Positions 10,850-37,675 of a stretch of DNA of 64,000 nucleotides are shown here, in pieces. The notes under the pieces were generated by a model. It did not search any database. It was not told where the DNA came from and was given only the letters and a program-made list of their open reading frames with translations. This stretch comes from Escherichia coli (GTDB lineage: Bacteria; Pseudomonadota; Gammaproteobacteria; Enterobacterales; Enterobacteriaceae): the NCBI RefSeq assembly GCF_030384885.1, contig NZ_CP128613.1; one strand, written 5' to 3'. The stretch's first letter is position 1; every line of letters begins with the position of its first letter. The position numbers and the translations under genes are program-made.

Positions 10850-10905
10850 GTCATCCGCAGCAAATGAACAATGCCGGATGCGACACCTGTGCCTTATCCG
10901 GCCAA
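10850..10905. repeat. REP (repetitive extragenic palindromic) element
   Basis: gccggatgcgacac...gccttatccggcc imperfect palindrome, typical enterobacterial REP; between convergent yjfN and aidB. Confidence 0.6.
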
Positions 10906-10996
10906 CAGTTCCTGAAATTTCATTGTGTTAGTTGATAACACGTAATGCTGCTGTTGCCATTATAAGACGCGCTAGCATCACATCTGGCTGACTCGT

Positions 10997-17860: not shown

Positions 17861-17892
17861 AAAAAAAACCATCCAAATATGGATGGTTTTTC
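17861..17892 (-). terminator. Intrinsic terminator downstream of rlmB
   Basis: Hairpin ccatcc-aaatat-ggatgg flanked by A9 and T5 runs; terminates the nsrR-rnr-rlmB transcript. Confidence 0.7.
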
Positions 17893-17906: not shown

Positions 17907-18638
17907 TTAGCTACGCTGGCGTACCGCTTCAAATAAGCAAATGCCGGTCGCTACCGAAACGTTCAGGGAAGAAACGCTTCCTGCCATGGGGATGCTGATC
18001 AACTCATCGCAATGTTCACGAGTCAGGCGACGCATGCCTTCACCTTCTGCGCCCATAACCAGTGCCAGCCGTCCGGTCATTTTGCTCTGATAGAGCGTAT
18101 GATCCGCCTCTCCTGCCGTACCGACGATCCAAATATTCTCTTCCTGCAACATACGCATAGTGCGCGCCAGGTTAGTCACCCGAATCAGCGGAACGCTTTC
18201 TGCCGCGCCGCAGGCCACTTTTTTCGCCGTGGCGTTGAGCTGTGCGGAGCGATCTTTCGGCACAATCACCGCATGAACGCCTGCGGCGTCCGCGCTGCGC
18301 AGGCACGCGCCGAGGTTGTGCGGATCGGTCACACCGTCGAGGATCAGCAGGAACGGTTGTTCGAGCGAAGCGATCAGATCCGGCAGATCGTTTTCCTGAT
18401 ACTGACGTCCTGGCTTCACACGGGCGATAATGCCCTGATGCACGGCACCGTCGCTTTTCTCGTCGAGATATTGGCGGTTTGCCAGCTGGATAACCACGCC
18501 CTGGGACTCAAGGGCGTGAATCAGCGGCAACAGACGTTTATCTTCACGGCCTTTTAAAATAAAGACTTCCTGAAAACGTTCAGGGGCGCGCTCCAGCAGG
18601 GCCTGCACTGCGTGGATGCCGTAAATCATTTCGCTCAT
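17907..18638 (-). CDS. rlmB: 23S rRNA (guanosine-2'-O)-methyltransferase, SpoU family
   Basis: 243-aa ORF. Confidence 0.95.
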
Positions 18639-18662
18639 TAATGTACTCGTTGTTTACGTTTT

Positions 18663-18763
18663 GCCTGATGCGCTACGCTTATCAGGCCTACATGATCCCT
18701 GCAATGTATTGAATTTGCGTGATTATGTAGGCCGGATAAGGCGTTCACGCCGCATCCGGCATG
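18663..18763. repeat. BIME: two inverted REP elements
   Basis: gcctgatgcgctacgcttatcaggcctac (18663-18691) and gtaggccggataaggcgttcacgccgcatccggcatg (18727-18763). Confidence 0.75.
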
Positions 18764-18818
18764 AACAAAGCGCATTTTGTCAGCAATCTGACCCTCTTCT
18801 GTTTGAAGAGGGTAATGA

Positions 18819-21260
18819 TCACTCTGCCACTTTTTTCTTCGCCGCACGCTTCGCTTTGGTCGCTGCGGCTATTTTCTGCGTTTTCGCCGATGGCTTTTTC
18901 GATTTTCTCGCGTCTTTCTTCGCCGCTTTCGGCTTCGTTTTTTTCTCGCCACGGAAGGCGCTGTCTGGCTCAAAGTTTACCTTTTTACCGACCTGGCGAC
19001 GCTTGCCGCCTTTTTTGCCTGCATCGCCTTTTTTCGCTTTCTCGCGCGCGGTTTTACCGACGTTGCGCGGTGCGCGTTCGCTGGAGATCAGGCTAAAGTC
19101 GATTTTGCGCTCGTCCATATTAACCGCTTCGACGCGAACTTCCACGCGATCGCCCAGGCGATAAGTCTGGCCGCTGGATTCACCCATCAGGCGTTGTCCC
19201 ACCTGGTCAAAGCGATAGTAGTCATTGTCCAGCGAAGAGACGTGGACCAGACCATCGATGAACAAGTCATCCAGGCGAACAAAGAAGCCAAAACCAGTGA
19301 CGCTGGAAATTACGCCTTTAAAGATGTTACCTACCTGGTCGAGCATGAAGTCACACTTCAGCCAGTCAGCCACATCACGCGTTGCTTCGTCGGCACGACG
19401 TTCCGCCATCGAACAGTGCTGACCCAGTTGCAGCATCTCTTCCATCGAATAATGGTAGCCGCCGGTTTCAGTGGTATTCCCCTGATGCCCCTGCTCTTTC
19501 GCCAGCAGATACTTAATGGCGCGGTGGAGCGTCAGATCAGGATAACGACGAATCGGCGAAGTAAAGTGCGCATAGGACTGCAATGCCAGACCGAAGTGAC
19601 CGCGGTTTTCCGGATCGTAAATCGCTTGTTTCATCGAGCGCAACAGCATGGTTTGCAGCATTTCTGCGTCAGGACGGTCAGCAACCGATTCCAGCAGTTC
19701 CGCGTAGTCACGCGGTTCCGGCTTGTTACCGCCAGGCAATTCCAGCCCCAGTTCCGCCAGCACTGAACGGAAAGAGGTTATCGCTTCGGTGCTCGGCTTG
19801 TCGTGAATACGGAACAGTGCCGGTTCTTTGGCCTTCTCAACGAAACGCGCCGCCGAGATATTCGCCAGAATCATGCACTCTTCAATTAACTTGTGTGCGT
19901 CGTTACGCTGGGTCTGTTCGATACGCTCAATACGGCGTTCAGCGTTGAAAATGAACTTCGCTTCTTCGCTCTCAAACGAGATCCCGCCGCGTTCTTCACG
20001 GGCTTTATCCAGCACTTTATAGAGGTTATGCAGCTCTTCGAGATGCTTAACCAGCGGGGAGTACTGCTCGCGCAGATCCTGATCGCCCTGCAGAATATGC
20101 CAGACTTTGGTGTAGGTCAGACGCGCGTGAGAGCTCATCACCGCTTCATAGAATTTGTAGCCAGTCAGGCGGCCTTTCGACGAAACCGTCATCTCGCACA
20201 CCATACACAGGCGGTCTACCTGCGGGTTGAGCGAACACAGGCCGTTAGAGAGCACTTCCGGCAGCATCGGGATAACCTGCGAAGGGAAGTACACCGACGT
20301 ACCACGGTTACGCGCTTCTCTATCCAGCGGTGTTGGCGGACGCACATAGTAACTGACGTCGGCAATTGCGACCCACAAACGCCAGCCGCCGCCGCGTTTT
20401 TTCTCGCAGTAAACTGCATCGTCAAAGTCACGGGCGTCTTCGCCATCAATGGTGACCAGCGGTAAATCGCGCAGATCGACACGGCCAGCTTTCGCCTCTT
20501 CCGGTACTTCTTCTTTCAGCCCGGCAACCTGTTGCTCAACAGCCTGCGGCCAGATGTACGGAATTTCATGGGTACGCAGGGCGATATCAACCGCCATGCC
20601 GGTGCCCATATTATCGCCCAGCACTTCGACGATTTTACCCACCGCTTTGGTACGGCGAGTCGGGCGTTGGGTCAGTTCAACCACCACCACAAAGCCCATC
20701 CGCGCGCCCATGATCTGATCGGGCGGGATTAAAATATCGAAGCTCAGACGGCTGTCGTCAGGAACCACAAAGCCGACACCCGCTTCAGTAAAGTAGCGAC
20801 CAACAATCTGGCTGGTTTTTGGCACCAGTACGCGGACAATACGCGCTTCACGGCGGCCTTTACGGTCAGCGCCCAGCGGCTGTGCCAGCACCTGATCGCC
20901 ATGAATGCAGGTTTTCATCTGCTCGCTGGAGAGATACAAATCATCTTTACGCCCTTCAACCCGCAGAAAGCCGTAGCCATCACGGTGGCCAATAACGGTA
21001 CCTTTCACCAGGTCGAGGCGTTCCGGCAGCGCATAGCACTGACGGCGAGTAAAGACCAGTTGACCATCGCGCTCCATCGCGCGCAGGCGGCGACGCAGGC
21101 CTTCAAGCTGCTCTTCGCCTTCAATGTGCAGTTCTACCGCCAACTCATCACGGCTGGCCGGTTTTTCACGTTTGGTTAAATGTTCGAGGATAAATTCCCG
21201 ACTAGGGATGGGATTCGCGTATTTTTCAGCTTCGCGTTCCTGGAAAGGATCTTGTGACAT
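18819..21260 (-). CDS. rnr: Ribonuclease R (3'-5' exoribonuclease, Lys-rich C-terminal tail)
   Basis: 813 aa from [14 protein letters not shown]...; track ORF carries a 14-codon upstream extension. Confidence 0.95.
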
Positions 21261-21298
21261 CTCGGTTCCTCCGTTGTCATCTCTGATGAAGATTTTCG

Positions 21299-21724
21299 TC
21301 ACTCCACCAGCAATAATTTATAAAGCGGTTGATTCTCTTCAACCAAATCGGCAAGCGTGTAGTTATCCAGTTCCGTAAGAAAACTTTGCACGGCCTTAGA
21401 AAGTGCCTGTTTCAACCGACAGGCAGGTGTAATGTGGCAAAACTCACTGCTGCAATTCACCAGCGATAAAGGTTCCAGCTCGCGCACCACATCACCAATA
21501 CGTATCGCACTCGCCGGTTTCCCCAGGCGAATGCCGCCATTTTTTCCACGAACAGCAGTCACGTAGCCGGCACGACTAAGTTGATTGATTATTTTGACCA
21601 TATGATTACGGGAGACGCCGTAGACGTCAGTCACTTCAGAAATACTGGTCATCCGCCCTTCTGGCAATGACGCCATGTAGATCAGCGCACGTAATCCGTA
21701 ATCAGTGAAACTCGTTAACTGCAC
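21299..21724 (-). CDS. nsrR: NO-sensing Rrf2-family repressor
   Basis: 141-aa ORF, Rrf2 HTH with Cys residues for the Fe-S cluster. Confidence 0.95.
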
Positions 21725-37579: not shown

Positions 37580-37621
37580 CAATTAAGCTAACCGTCGTTA
37601 GAATCGTCCCCTTTTTTTCAG

Positions 37622-37647
37622 GATCCGGCATGTAGGCCGGATCAGGA
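37622..37647. repeat. REP-like palindrome
   Basis: ccggcatgtaggccggatcagg between rsgA and psd. Confidence 0.45.
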
Positions 37648-37675
37648 ACGACAAAACAATGGCCTGGAGGCTACC

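What the first reader, a model, noticed from the sequence alone, without database searches (positions are those of the whole stretch)
18663..18763. BIME between rlmB and rnr
Two inverted REP elements occupy most of the 180-bp spacer between rnr and rlmB; such elements can act as mRNA stabilisers or decay barriers within an operon, here possibly differentiating rnr and rlmB transcript levels.
Basis: partly seen in the sequence, partly recalled or inferred. Interest (0 to 1): 0.15.

Follow-up and report, generated by a model that had tools for sequence, protein, structure and literature searches.

The report
Ordinary BIME-1 repeat between rnr and rlmB
The spacer between the E. coli RNase R gene and the rRNA methyltransferase gene rlmB holds a well-known kind of chromosomal repeat (a BIME-1: two inverted REP hairpins around a conserved linker); it is real but ordinary, and its effect on the two genes' transcript levels is still untested.

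Summary
The window is E. coli chromosome. On the minus strand it reads nsrR-rnr-rlmB, with a 180-bp rnr-rlmB spacer (18639-18818).

The spacer holds:
- a Z1-type REP (18662-18691);
- a 35-bp conserved L linker (18692-18726) with an IHF-like core;
- an inverted Y-type REP (18727-18761).

This is the defining architecture of a BIME-1. The repeated unit is larger than reported. Copies at other loci also share a 30-nt outer motif, out to about 18794, so the element fills about 74% of the spacer.

The spacer has no U-tract terminator and no promoter-like site on the coding strand. rlmB therefore has to be transcribed through the element.

The BIME-1 is polymorphic. About 71% of 5,426 complete E. 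coli genomes carry it. About 29% (UTI89, Nissle and ATCC 11775 among them) have a 91-bp spacer with one REP, which aligns with a Citrobacter hairpin. Nearly all Enterobacterales have some U-tract-less hairpin in this spacer.

The proposed role as an exonuclease barrier or attenuator fits published REP biology, but I could not test it here. The element is already known in kind and of low interest.

The parts
18662..18691 (+). Z1-type REP (palindromic unit). TGCC head at 18662, CCTAC tail facing inward. On the transcribed (-) strand it reads GTAGGCCTGATAAGCGTAGCGCATCAGGCA and is the distal hairpin, 23 nt upstream of the rlmB ATG.
   Evidence: Sequence. Identical to the Z1 unit of copies at mog-satP and entD-fepA. 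As RNA it folds at -12.9 kcal/mol. It has the GTAG tetranucleotide 5' of the stem, as defined in PMC3333891.
18692..18726 (.). L linker of the BIME-1 (35 bp). It holds the IHF-like core ATTCAATACATTG at 18714-18702 (-).
   Evidence: The linker plus 4 nt of each REP tail is found at a median of 15 places per E. coli genome. It is conserved in copies at other loci. It gives a sub-threshold Rfam hit to ES036/CssrF, 33.2 bits against a gathering score of 37.6. It has one 1-mismatch match to WATCARNNNNTTR, against a background of 1.56 per kb. [quoted passage not shown]
18727..18761 (-). Y-type REP (palindromic unit), TGCCGGATGCGGCGTGAACGCCTTATCCGGCCTAC on the - strand. It is the first REP hairpin to be transcribed, 57 nt after the rnr stop codon.
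   Evidence: inverted repeat I4. It aligns to the first (Y) hairpin of the Rfam naRNA4 model, 38.2 bits, E = 9e-6, below the gathering score because only one of the model's two hairpins is present. As RNA it folds at -21.3 kcal/mol. It is invariant in 5 Escherichia alleles.
18762..18794 (.). Outer motif of the repeated unit (+ strand ATGAACAAAGCGCATTTTGTCAGCAATCTGAC). It is not a REP but travels with BIME-1 copies. It contains the small palindrome TCAGATTGCTGA.
   Evidence: A median of 8 places per genome. Copies at other loci in genomes with the short spacer align out to window positions 18792-18799. The three-locus alignment shows it conserved at mog-satP and entD-fepA. It is absent from the short (UTI89) allele.
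18791..18813 (-). Perfect 9-bp stem, 5-nt loop hairpin (ACCCUCUUC AAACA GAAGAGGGU) starting 5 nt after the rnr TGA. It is not a REP and has no U-tract.
   Evidence: Inverted repeat I6. Folds at -14.0 kcal/mol. Present in both the long and the short E. coli alleles and in E. albertii and E. whittamii. Absent from Citrobacter.
18819..21302 (-). rnr (RNase R), the upstream gene. Stop codon TGA at 18821-18819. The listed ORF starts at an upstream GTG; the profile match begins at residue 15.
   Evidence: NF008648 equivalog, 1787 bits. MG1655 annotation.
17907..18638 (-). rlmB (23S rRNA Gm2251 2'-O-methyltransferase), the downstream gene. ATG at 18638.
   Evidence: NF008386 equivalog, 490 bits. MG1655 annotation.
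17863..17892 (-). Intrinsic terminator after rlmB (13-bp stem followed by a T-run). It marks the 3' end of the transcription unit that contains the BIME-1.
   Evidence: Terminator scan. Conway et al. end the operon at rlmB (PMC4161252).

Best explanation
The element is a single-copy BIME-1: a Z1 REP, an L linker, an inverted Y REP and a 30-nt outer motif. It belongs to the E. coli REP/BIME family of dispersed extragenic repeats and sits inside the nsrR-rnr-rlmB transcription unit.

Shown here: its identity and architecture, its repetition elsewhere in the genome, its strong RNA folding potential, the lack of a U-tract terminator or promoter-like site in the spacer, and its presence or absence across strains.

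Inferred: RNA polymerase coming from rnr transcribes through it. The nascent RNA first forms the post-stop hairpin and the Y REP hairpin. It then forms either the Z1 hairpin or one long Y:Z1 hairpin. These structures act as a barrier to 3'-to-5' exonucleases (PNPase, RNase II). After endonucleolytic cleavage or Rho-dependent termination further downstream, the rnr part of the message would therefore outlive the rlmB part. The structures may also attenuate read-through into rlmB. The net effect would be a higher rnr:rlmB transcript ratio.

At the DNA level the L linker probably binds IHF, as in other BIME-1 copies. The BIME-1 is a derived addition in Escherichia. A single REP-type hairpin at this position is older and is shared with Citrobacter.

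The confidence value of 0.55 is for identity and mechanism taken together: identity about 0.97, the expression effect about 0.5.
For: Identity:
- Searches show two inverted REPs, tail-to-tail, 35 bp apart.
- (PMC3333891) defines BIME-1 as z1 + y, single copy, with a long conserved L linker that often carries an IHF site.
- One search gives Rfam alignments to the naRNA4 Y hairpin and to ES036.
- Searches show that the linker, the outer motif and the whole unit recur at other loci.

Context:
- Searches identify the genes.
- Searches show that the literature treats nsrR-rnr-rlmB(yjfH) as co-transcribed.
- One search finds no U-tract terminator or sigma-70-like promoter on the coding strand of the spacer, and a strong terminator after rlmB.

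Structure:
- Searches give the spacer -72 to -76 kcal/mol (z = -6.5), the Y hairpin -21.3, and the core as one hairpin -45.0 against -34.2 for two separate hairpins.
- One search finds two compensatory changes in E. albertii in the Y:Z1 helix.

Function by analogy:
- REP tandem gene pairs are biased toward upstream expression.
- REPs act as stabilisers and partial Rho-dependent terminators, and they block exonucleases.

Comparative:
- 94% of 77 Enterobacterales rnr-rlmB spacers hold a hairpin of -15 kcal/mol or stronger, and only 3 have a U-tract.
Against: - No transcript, 3'-end, half-life or IHF-occupancy data for this spacer could be obtained. The held Term-seq supplements of PMC7815308 contain no entry for rnr or rlmB (the stored files may be truncated).
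- About 29% of E. coli genomes lack the BIME-1, so it is dispensable.
- The post-stop hairpin and the older single REP may already provide any barrier, which would leave the BIME-1 redundant.
- Stable hairpins are common in co-directional spacers generally: 65% of 20 crude spacers in this window reach -15 kcal/mol. The comparative signal is therefore modest.
- The 2026 preprint stresses that REP effects depend on context and are not uniform.
- The IHF core match has one mismatch and is not significant on its own.
Confidence: 0.55

Rival explanations
1. Neutral passenger. The BIME-1 is a selfish or hitch-hiking repeat that landed at, or grew from, a pre-existing REP in a tolerant intercistronic spacer. 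It has no meaningful effect on rnr or rlmB expression.
For: - Presence/absence polymorphism: 3,842 of 5,426 genomes carry it, and the rest have a 91-bp spacer.
- The Z1 unit is decaying in some strains. K-12 has 3 substitutions including stem mismatches, and strain SCPM-O-B-8794 has GGTCAGAT.
- The short allele's REP aligns with a Citrobacter hairpin, so the BIME-1 is a later addition.
- BIME number and content vary by locus and strain, and are attributed to TnpA-REP activity (PMC3333891).
Against: - The long allele is retained with 95% or higher identity in E. coli, E. albertii and E. whittamii.
- The Y unit is invariant, and two compensatory changes keep the Y:Z1 helix intact.
- A -45 kcal/mol structure in a transcribed spacer is unlikely to be invisible to the decay machinery.
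Confidence: 0.3
2. Transcription attenuator. The main effect is partial, Rho-assisted or structure-induced termination within or just after the BIME. This would lower rlmB transcription rather than stabilise rnr mRNA.
For: [quoted passage not shown] 2001) is cited.
- In several other genera the same spacer carries a true U-tract terminator followed by a TATAAT-type box (L004, L059, L076, L105). Uncoupling rnr from rlmB is therefore an evolutionarily recurring solution.
Against: - There is no U-tract after any hairpin on the coding strand.
- No promoter-like site was found in the spacer, so strong termination would silence rlmB.
- The operon is described as reading through to rlmB/yjfH and yjfI.
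Confidence: 0.25
3. Primarily a DNA-level element. The BIME-1 would act as an IHF-binding, DNA-bending site or supercoil-diffusion barrier that contributes to local chromosome architecture, with RNA effects incidental.
For: - The BIME-1 L linker frequently carries an IHF site (PMC3333891), and an IHF-like core lies at the centre of this linker.
- BIMEs have been proposed as topological domain barriers (PMC6907758).
- The + strand core also forms a -50 kcal/mol hairpin, so a cruciform is possible.
Against: - The IHF core has one mismatch and is not significant alone.
- No ChIP data were retrieved for this site.
- A recent study found no measurable chromosome-compaction role or REP-REP contacts for the model REP325.
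- The element is absent from 29% of strains.
Confidence: 0.12

Closest known systems
BIME-1 (also called RIB or RIP elements; Gilson/Bachellier/Hofnung classification, summarised in Ton-Hoang et al. 2012, PMC3333891)
   Same: One z1 and one y REP in inverse orientation, tail-to-tail, single copy, separated by a long conserved L linker with an IHF-like core. GTAG lies 5' of each palindrome. The location is extragenic. It is near-identical to copies at mog-satP and entD-fepA.
   Different: It sits between two co-transcribed genes rather than at the 3' end of a transcription unit. The title of Boccard & Prentki 1993, cited, places RIBs at 3' ends. Only one of the two flanking outer motifs seen at the other two loci is present: the GACTGATGACAAACGCAAAAC flank next to Z1 is missing here. 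This window's linker has AATACATTG where other copies have AATATATTG.
REP325 / naRNA4 (yjdM-yjdN BIME-2 array)
   Same: A Y-type REP hairpin within a tandem gene pair, transcribed from the upstream gene's promoter. REP325 is proposed to act both as a stabiliser of the upstream mRNA and as a partial terminator.
   Different: REP325 is six tandem Y-l-Z2 units with short linkers (BIME-2). Here there is a single Y-L-Z1 unit. The Rfam naRNA4 hit covers only the Y hairpin and falls below the gathering score (38.2 vs 59.5 bits).
Rfam ES036 (CssrF) sRNA family, RF02751
   Same: The 43-nt model aligns to the L linker plus the GTAGGCCU tail of the Z1 REP (18726-18684, minus strand). This suggests the 'sRNA' family is itself the linker of a BIME-1.
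   Different: The score of 33.2 bits is below the gathering score of 37.6. There is no evidence here for a discrete sRNA.
Intrinsic (Rho-independent) terminators
   Same: A GC-rich hairpin downstream of a stop codon.
   Different: No U-tract follows the post-stop hairpin or either REP. The scan finds none on the coding strand of the spacer, whereas a canonical terminator follows rlmB.

Membership tests
BIME-1 | Composed of one y-type and one z1-type REP (palindromic unit) | tested here: met
   The Y unit aligns to the Y hairpin of the naRNA4 model. The other unit is the short GCCTGATG-type REP and is identical to the unit in two other BIME-1-like copies. The z1 versus z2 call rests on its 30-nt length and on consensus sequences recalled from memory. 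PMC3333891 gives the composition rule.
BIME-1 | REP and inverted REP separated by a long, well-conserved L linker | tested here: met
   The linker is 35 bp. It recurs at a median of 15 places per genome and is conserved in the three-locus alignment.
BIME-1 | Occurs as a single copy, not tandemly amplified | tested here: met
   There is one Z1-L-Y unit in the 180-bp spacer. All 5 Escherichia long alleles have the same single unit.
BIME-1 | L linker binds IHF | tested here: inconclusive
   There is one 1-mismatch match to WATCARNNNNTTR at 18714-18702 (-), in the middle of the linker, but such matches occur 1.56 times per kb in the window. Binding itself cannot be tested with these tools, and no ChIP table could be retrieved.
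REP / palindromic unit | Imperfect palindrome of 30-40 nt with a conserved GTAG 5' of the stem foot, in an extragenic location and at high copy number | tested here: met
   Both units carry GTAGGCC (or its complement GGCCTAC) at the stem foot. They lie between the rnr stop and the rlmB start.
REP as mRNA stabiliser / 3' exonuclease barrier | Transcribed as part of an mRNA and able to fold into a stable stem-loop | tested here: met
   Transcription is inferred from the operon descriptions and from the absence of a terminator or promoter in the spacer.
REP as mRNA stabiliser / 3' exonuclease barrier | Upstream mRNA segment accumulates or has a longer half-life, with 3' ends at the REP | not testable with these tools
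   No RNA-seq, Term-seq or Northern data for this spacer could be retrieved.
Intrinsic terminator | GC-rich hairpin followed at once by a U-tract | tested here: not met
   The terminator scan finds none on the minus strand within 18639-18818.
REP that stalls terminating ribosomes (Liang, Rudd & Deutscher 2015; recalled from memory, not read here) | REP begins within about 15 nt of the stop codon | tested here: not met
   The Y REP begins 57 nt after the rnr TGA. The structure 5 nt after the stop is a private, non-REP hairpin.

The most novel reading that the evidence does not exclude
The structured RNA placed just downstream of rnr could form an autoregulatory loop. In Escherichia this RNA is the post-stop hairpin plus a REP or BIME-1. 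In nearly every other Enterobacterales genus sampled it is an unrelated U-tract-less hairpin. RNase R is described as the only exoribonuclease that digests highly structured RNA without a helicase (PMC4042491). The 3'-protected rnr message would therefore be degraded preferentially by its own product. High RNase R activity would shorten rnr mRNA life, and low activity or cold-stabilised structure would lengthen it. The BIME-1 versus short-allele polymorphism would then tune the set-point between E. coli lineages.
Probability: 0.08. Interest if true: 0.5.

Novelty: already known. Interest (0 to 1): 0.1.

Why it matters
It matters little beyond correct annotation. REP/BIME elements of E. coli K-12 have been catalogued for decades, and this copy is 96% identical to the one in MG1655.

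Three points have modest value:
1. The natural long/short allele split (about 71% versus 29% of complete E. coli genomes) is a ready-made experiment. It could show whether a BIME-1 inside an operon changes the ratio of a stress-induced RNase to its co-transcribed rRNA methyltransferase.
2. A U-tract-less hairpin after rnr recurs across Enterobacterales with unrelated sequences. This hints at a conserved need for a 3' structure on the rnr message.
3. The Rfam 'sRNA' family ES036 appears to be a BIME-1 linker. That is a caution for automated sRNA annotation.

Tried and rejected
- **Transcript and protein-binding evidence.** I looked for direct transcript evidence in Conway 2014 (no supplements held), Dar & Sorek 2018 (none held), Adams 2021 Term-seq supplements (no rnr or rlmB entries in the held text) and PMC9023263 (none held). 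I looked for IHF ChIP tables in PMC3333857 and PMC8407004 (nothing usable). RepRanger supplements had no entry.
- **Primary BIME/RIB papers.** Gilson 1991 and Boccard & Prentki 1993 are not held. The Y/Z1 consensus sequences and the 'A/B extremity motif' nomenclature therefore rest on memory, and I do not name the outer motif.
- **MG1655 annotation.** I checked the MG1655 RefSeq record for a REP feature at this locus. This copy carries no REP features at all, not even REP325. The REP number and annotation status could not be confirmed.
- **Rfam hits.** Rfam gave only sub-threshold hits. The mir-76 and other weak hits are generic hairpin matches and were rejected.
- **Intrinsic terminator.** Rejected, because there is no U-tract.
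- **Internal rlmB promoter in the spacer.** None was found by the simple scan. This does not exclude non-consensus promoters.
- **The 69-aa ORF 18638-18847 (-) and the + strand ORFs over the spacer.** Treated as spurious, because they run through repeat sequence and overlap rnr.
- **Comparative hairpin conservation.** I considered treating it as strong evidence of function, then tempered it after the in-window control showed 65% of co-directional spacers also hold a hairpin of -15 kcal/mol or stronger.

Full report
**What is there**

The window is E. coli chromosome. A 341-bp query around the finding is 100% identical to strain 2013C-4282 and matches 5,425 of 5,426 complete genomes.

On the minus strand the genes are:
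- nsrR (21724-21299);
- rnr (stop codon TGA at 18821-18819);
- rlmB (18638-17907);
- yjfI and yjfJ.

These were identified by NCBIfam equivalog models and by the MG1655 annotation. The rnr-rlmB spacer is 18639-18818, 180 bp.

Read 5' to 3' on the transcribed strand, the spacer contains:
1. 5 nt;
2. a perfect 9-bp hairpin ACCCUCUUC-AAACA-GAAGAGGGU (18813-18791);
3. a 30-nt segment, UCAGAUUGCUGACAAAAUGCGCUUUGUUCA;
4. a Y-type REP, UGCCGGAUGCGGCGUGAACGCCUUAUCCGGCCUAC (18761-18727);
5. a 35-nt linker (18726-18692);
6. a Z1-type REP, GUAGGCCUGAUAAGCGUAGCGCAUCAGGCA (18691-18662);
7. 23 nt carrying the rlmB ribosome-binding region.

**Is it more than chance?**

Yes. The REP tail motif occurs 4 times in the window against 0.41 expected, and none of 100 shuffles reached that count. 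The spacer RNA folds at -76.4 kcal/mol against -49.2 ± 4.2 for shuffles, z = -6.5.

**What kind of element is it?**

Ton-Hoang et al. (PMC3333891) summarise the classification. BIME-1 elements are composed of z1 and y REPs and occur as single copies. [quoted passage not shown] BIME-2 elements are tandem arrays of z2 and y with short linkers. This element meets each structural criterion.

- The Y unit aligns to the Y hairpin of the Rfam naRNA4 model (38.2 bits, E = 9e-6). The score is below the gathering threshold because the model's second hairpin is absent.
- The linker aligns to Rfam ES036/CssrF (33.2 vs 37.6 bits).
- The linker recurs at a median of 15 places per genome.
- It contains one 1-mismatch match to the IHF core WATCARNNNNTTR, at 18714-18702 (-). 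That match is not significant alone, because such matches occur 1.56 times per kb in the window.

**The repeated unit is larger than reported**

In genomes that lack this copy, the best match elsewhere in the genome to 18650-18800 extends from window position 18662 to 18792-18799. I aligned this locus with copies at mog-satP (Nissle 1917) and entD-fepA. A 30-nt motif outside the Y head, TGAACAAAGCGCAYTTTGTCARCAATCTGA, is conserved at all three loci. On its own it recurs about 8 times per genome.

The element thus spans about 18662-18794, which is 133 bp or 74% of the spacer. The other two copies also share a flank next to Z1 (GACTGATGACAAACGCAAAAC) that is missing here.

**RNA structure**

| Segment | Energy (kcal/mol) |
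|---|---|
| Post-stop hairpin | -14.0 |
| Y REP | -21.3 |
| Z1 REP | -12.9 |
| 100-nt core as one long Y:Z1 hairpin | -45.0 |
| 100-nt core as two separate REP hairpins | -34.2 |

Among five Escherichia long alleles, the only double substitutions are two compensatory C-G to U-A changes in E. albertii. Both lie in the inter-REP helix. This is a small sample. It fits either selection on the long hairpin or cruciform, or arm-to-arm templated repair.

**Transcriptional context**

The simple scans find no U-tract terminator and no sigma-70-like promoter on the coding strand of the spacer. They do find a strong intrinsic terminator right after rlmB, at 17892-17863. The literature treats the genes as co-transcribed. 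Conway et al. define a complex operon ending in nsrR-rnr-rlmB (PMC4161252). A 2025 review lists nsrR-rnr-yjfHI as a cold-shock unit controlled by Rho at its leader (PMC12360218). So rlmB appears to depend on transcription through the BIME-1.

**Variation**

The BIME-1 is polymorphic. 3,842 of 5,426 genomes carry the long spacer. The remainder, including UTI89, Nissle 1917, ATCC 25922 and the type strain ATCC 11775, have a 91-bp spacer. The short spacer keeps the post-stop hairpin and a single REP of a different stem sequence, GTAGGCCGGGCAAGCGTGGCGCTCCCGGCA. It lacks the outer motif, the Y REP and the L linker. The Z1 and short-allele REPs are collinear and differ by paired changes that keep the stem.

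**Outgroups**

A pattern scan for the rlmB start returned 120 loci from GTDB species representatives. The 180-bp BIME-1 spacer is present in E. coli, E. albertii and E. whittamii only. Citrobacter species have a 64-87-bp spacer with one hairpin, GTA(A/G)GCCGGGC...GCCCGGC. It aligns position for position with the short-allele REP, at the same distance from the rlmB ribosome-binding site. A single REP-type hairpin is therefore the older state, and the BIME-1 is a derived addition in Escherichia.

I analysed 77 spacers of 40-200 nt whose upstream gene is confirmed as rnr:
- 94% contain a single hairpin of -15 kcal/mol or stronger, with a median of -21.7;
- the median whole-spacer z is -3.6;
- only 3 of these hairpins are followed by a U-tract.

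The sequences are unrelated between genera. Enterobacter has CCCTCTCCC/GGGAGAGGG, Klebsiella has CCCTTCACCC/GGGTGAAGGG, and Atlantibacter has CTGGCCTTATC/GATAAGGCCAG.

As a caution, a crude control of 20 co-directional spacers in this window gives a median of -20.2, with 65% at -15 or stronger. Many of those are terminators. The enrichment is real but modest.

In a few genera (L004, L059, L076, L105) the spacer instead holds a canonical U-tract terminator followed by a GGTTATAATGG box. That would uncouple rnr and rlmB outright.

**How it most likely works**

Identity is essentially certain. Function is inferred from the family.

- REP hairpins resist 3' exonucleases and define stable 3' ends after downstream Rho termination (PMC6061677; PMC10100675).
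- The model REP325 both stabilises the upstream gene's mRNA and partially terminates transcription into the downstream gene.
- Genome-wide, REP-containing tandem pairs show a raised upstream/downstream expression ratio with wide variance (bioRxiv 10.64898/2026.03.23.713779).

Applied here, the hairpin cluster should favour rnr over rlmB transcript abundance. I rate it about even odds for a measurable effect of the BIME-1 itself, for three reasons: an older REP plus the post-stop hairpin may already do the job, 29% of strains lack the BIME-1, and no expression data could be retrieved. IHF binding to the linker is likely by family resemblance but was not tested.

**Comparison and novelty**

This is a member of a long-known family. 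The K-12 copy is 96% identical. I could not confirm its REP number, because the RefSeq copy available here carries no REP features at all.

Nothing about the element is anomalous. The one mild point is that it sits inside an operon rather than at the end of a transcription unit.

The most novel reading not excluded is an autoregulatory loop. In it, RNase R, described as the only exonuclease able to digest structured RNA unaided (PMC4042491), preferentially degrades its own hairpin-protected message. I give this a low probability.

**Verdict**

The element is already known in kind. Interest is about 0.1.

Noticed in passing
window 18791-18813 (- strand): A perfect 9-bp hairpin with a 5-nt loop and no U-tract starts only 5 nt after the rnr stop codon. 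It is not a REP. It is conserved in both the long and short E. coli alleles and in E. albertii and E. whittamii, and it is absent from Citrobacter. At that distance it could interfere with terminating ribosomes, but this was not tested.
   Followed up: partly
L002 (UTI89) 380-470; About 29% of complete E. coli genomes (UTI89, Nissle 1917, ATCC 25922 and ATCC 11775 among them) have a 91-bp rnr-rlmB spacer with a single variant REP in place of the BIME-1. This gives a natural long/short allele pair for functional tests. The short allele's REP aligns with the Citrobacter hairpin.
   Followed up: partly
window 18684-18726 (- strand): The Rfam 'sRNA' family ES036 (CssrF, RF02751) aligns to the BIME-1 L linker plus a REP tail (33.2 bits, just under the gathering score of 37.6). 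The family looks like a repeat-element linker rather than a dedicated sRNA gene.
   Followed up: no
window 17863-17892 (- strand): A strong intrinsic terminator (13-bp stem GAAAAACCATCC...GGATGGTTTTT plus a T-run) lies 15 nt after the rlmB stop, between rlmB and yjfI. Some papers nevertheless call the unit nsrR-rnr-yjfHI.
   Followed up: no
loci L004, L059, L076, L105, L016, L048 (rnr-rlmB spacers of Enterobacter sp. Bisph1, Siccibacter, Leclercia, Kosakonia, Kluyvera): In some genera the spacer is 150-540 bp. It carries a canonical U-tract terminator after rnr, followed by a conserved GTCGGTTATAATGGGCG box and a conserved downstream segment before rlmB. This looks like an independent rlmB promoter or leader. 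The Kluyvera spacers are 306-430 bp and may hold a small ORF.
   Followed up: no
window 10872-10906 (+ strand): A solitary Y-like REP (TGCCGGATGCGACACCTGTGCCTTATCCGGCCAAC) with a degenerate tail (CCAAC instead of CCTAC).
   Followed up: no
window 37620-37650: A short REP remnant (GGATCCGGCATGTAGGCCGGATCAGG) lies in a 240-bp intergenic region, directly after a T-run.
   Followed up: no
alignment A3, columns 88/132 and 98/122 (E. albertii, L005): Two compensatory C-G to U-A changes keep the Y-tail:Z1-tail and linker helix paired while weakening each individual REP stem. This hints that the long Y:Z1 hairpin or cruciform, or arm-to-arm templated repair, is what gets preserved.
   Followed up: partly
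hit H2 (NZ_CP166435.1): In at least one RefSeq genome, PGAP annotates a 'hypothetical protein' overlapping this spacer. It is probably the spurious ORF that runs through the repeat (compare the window ORF 18638-18847, - strand).
   Followed up: no
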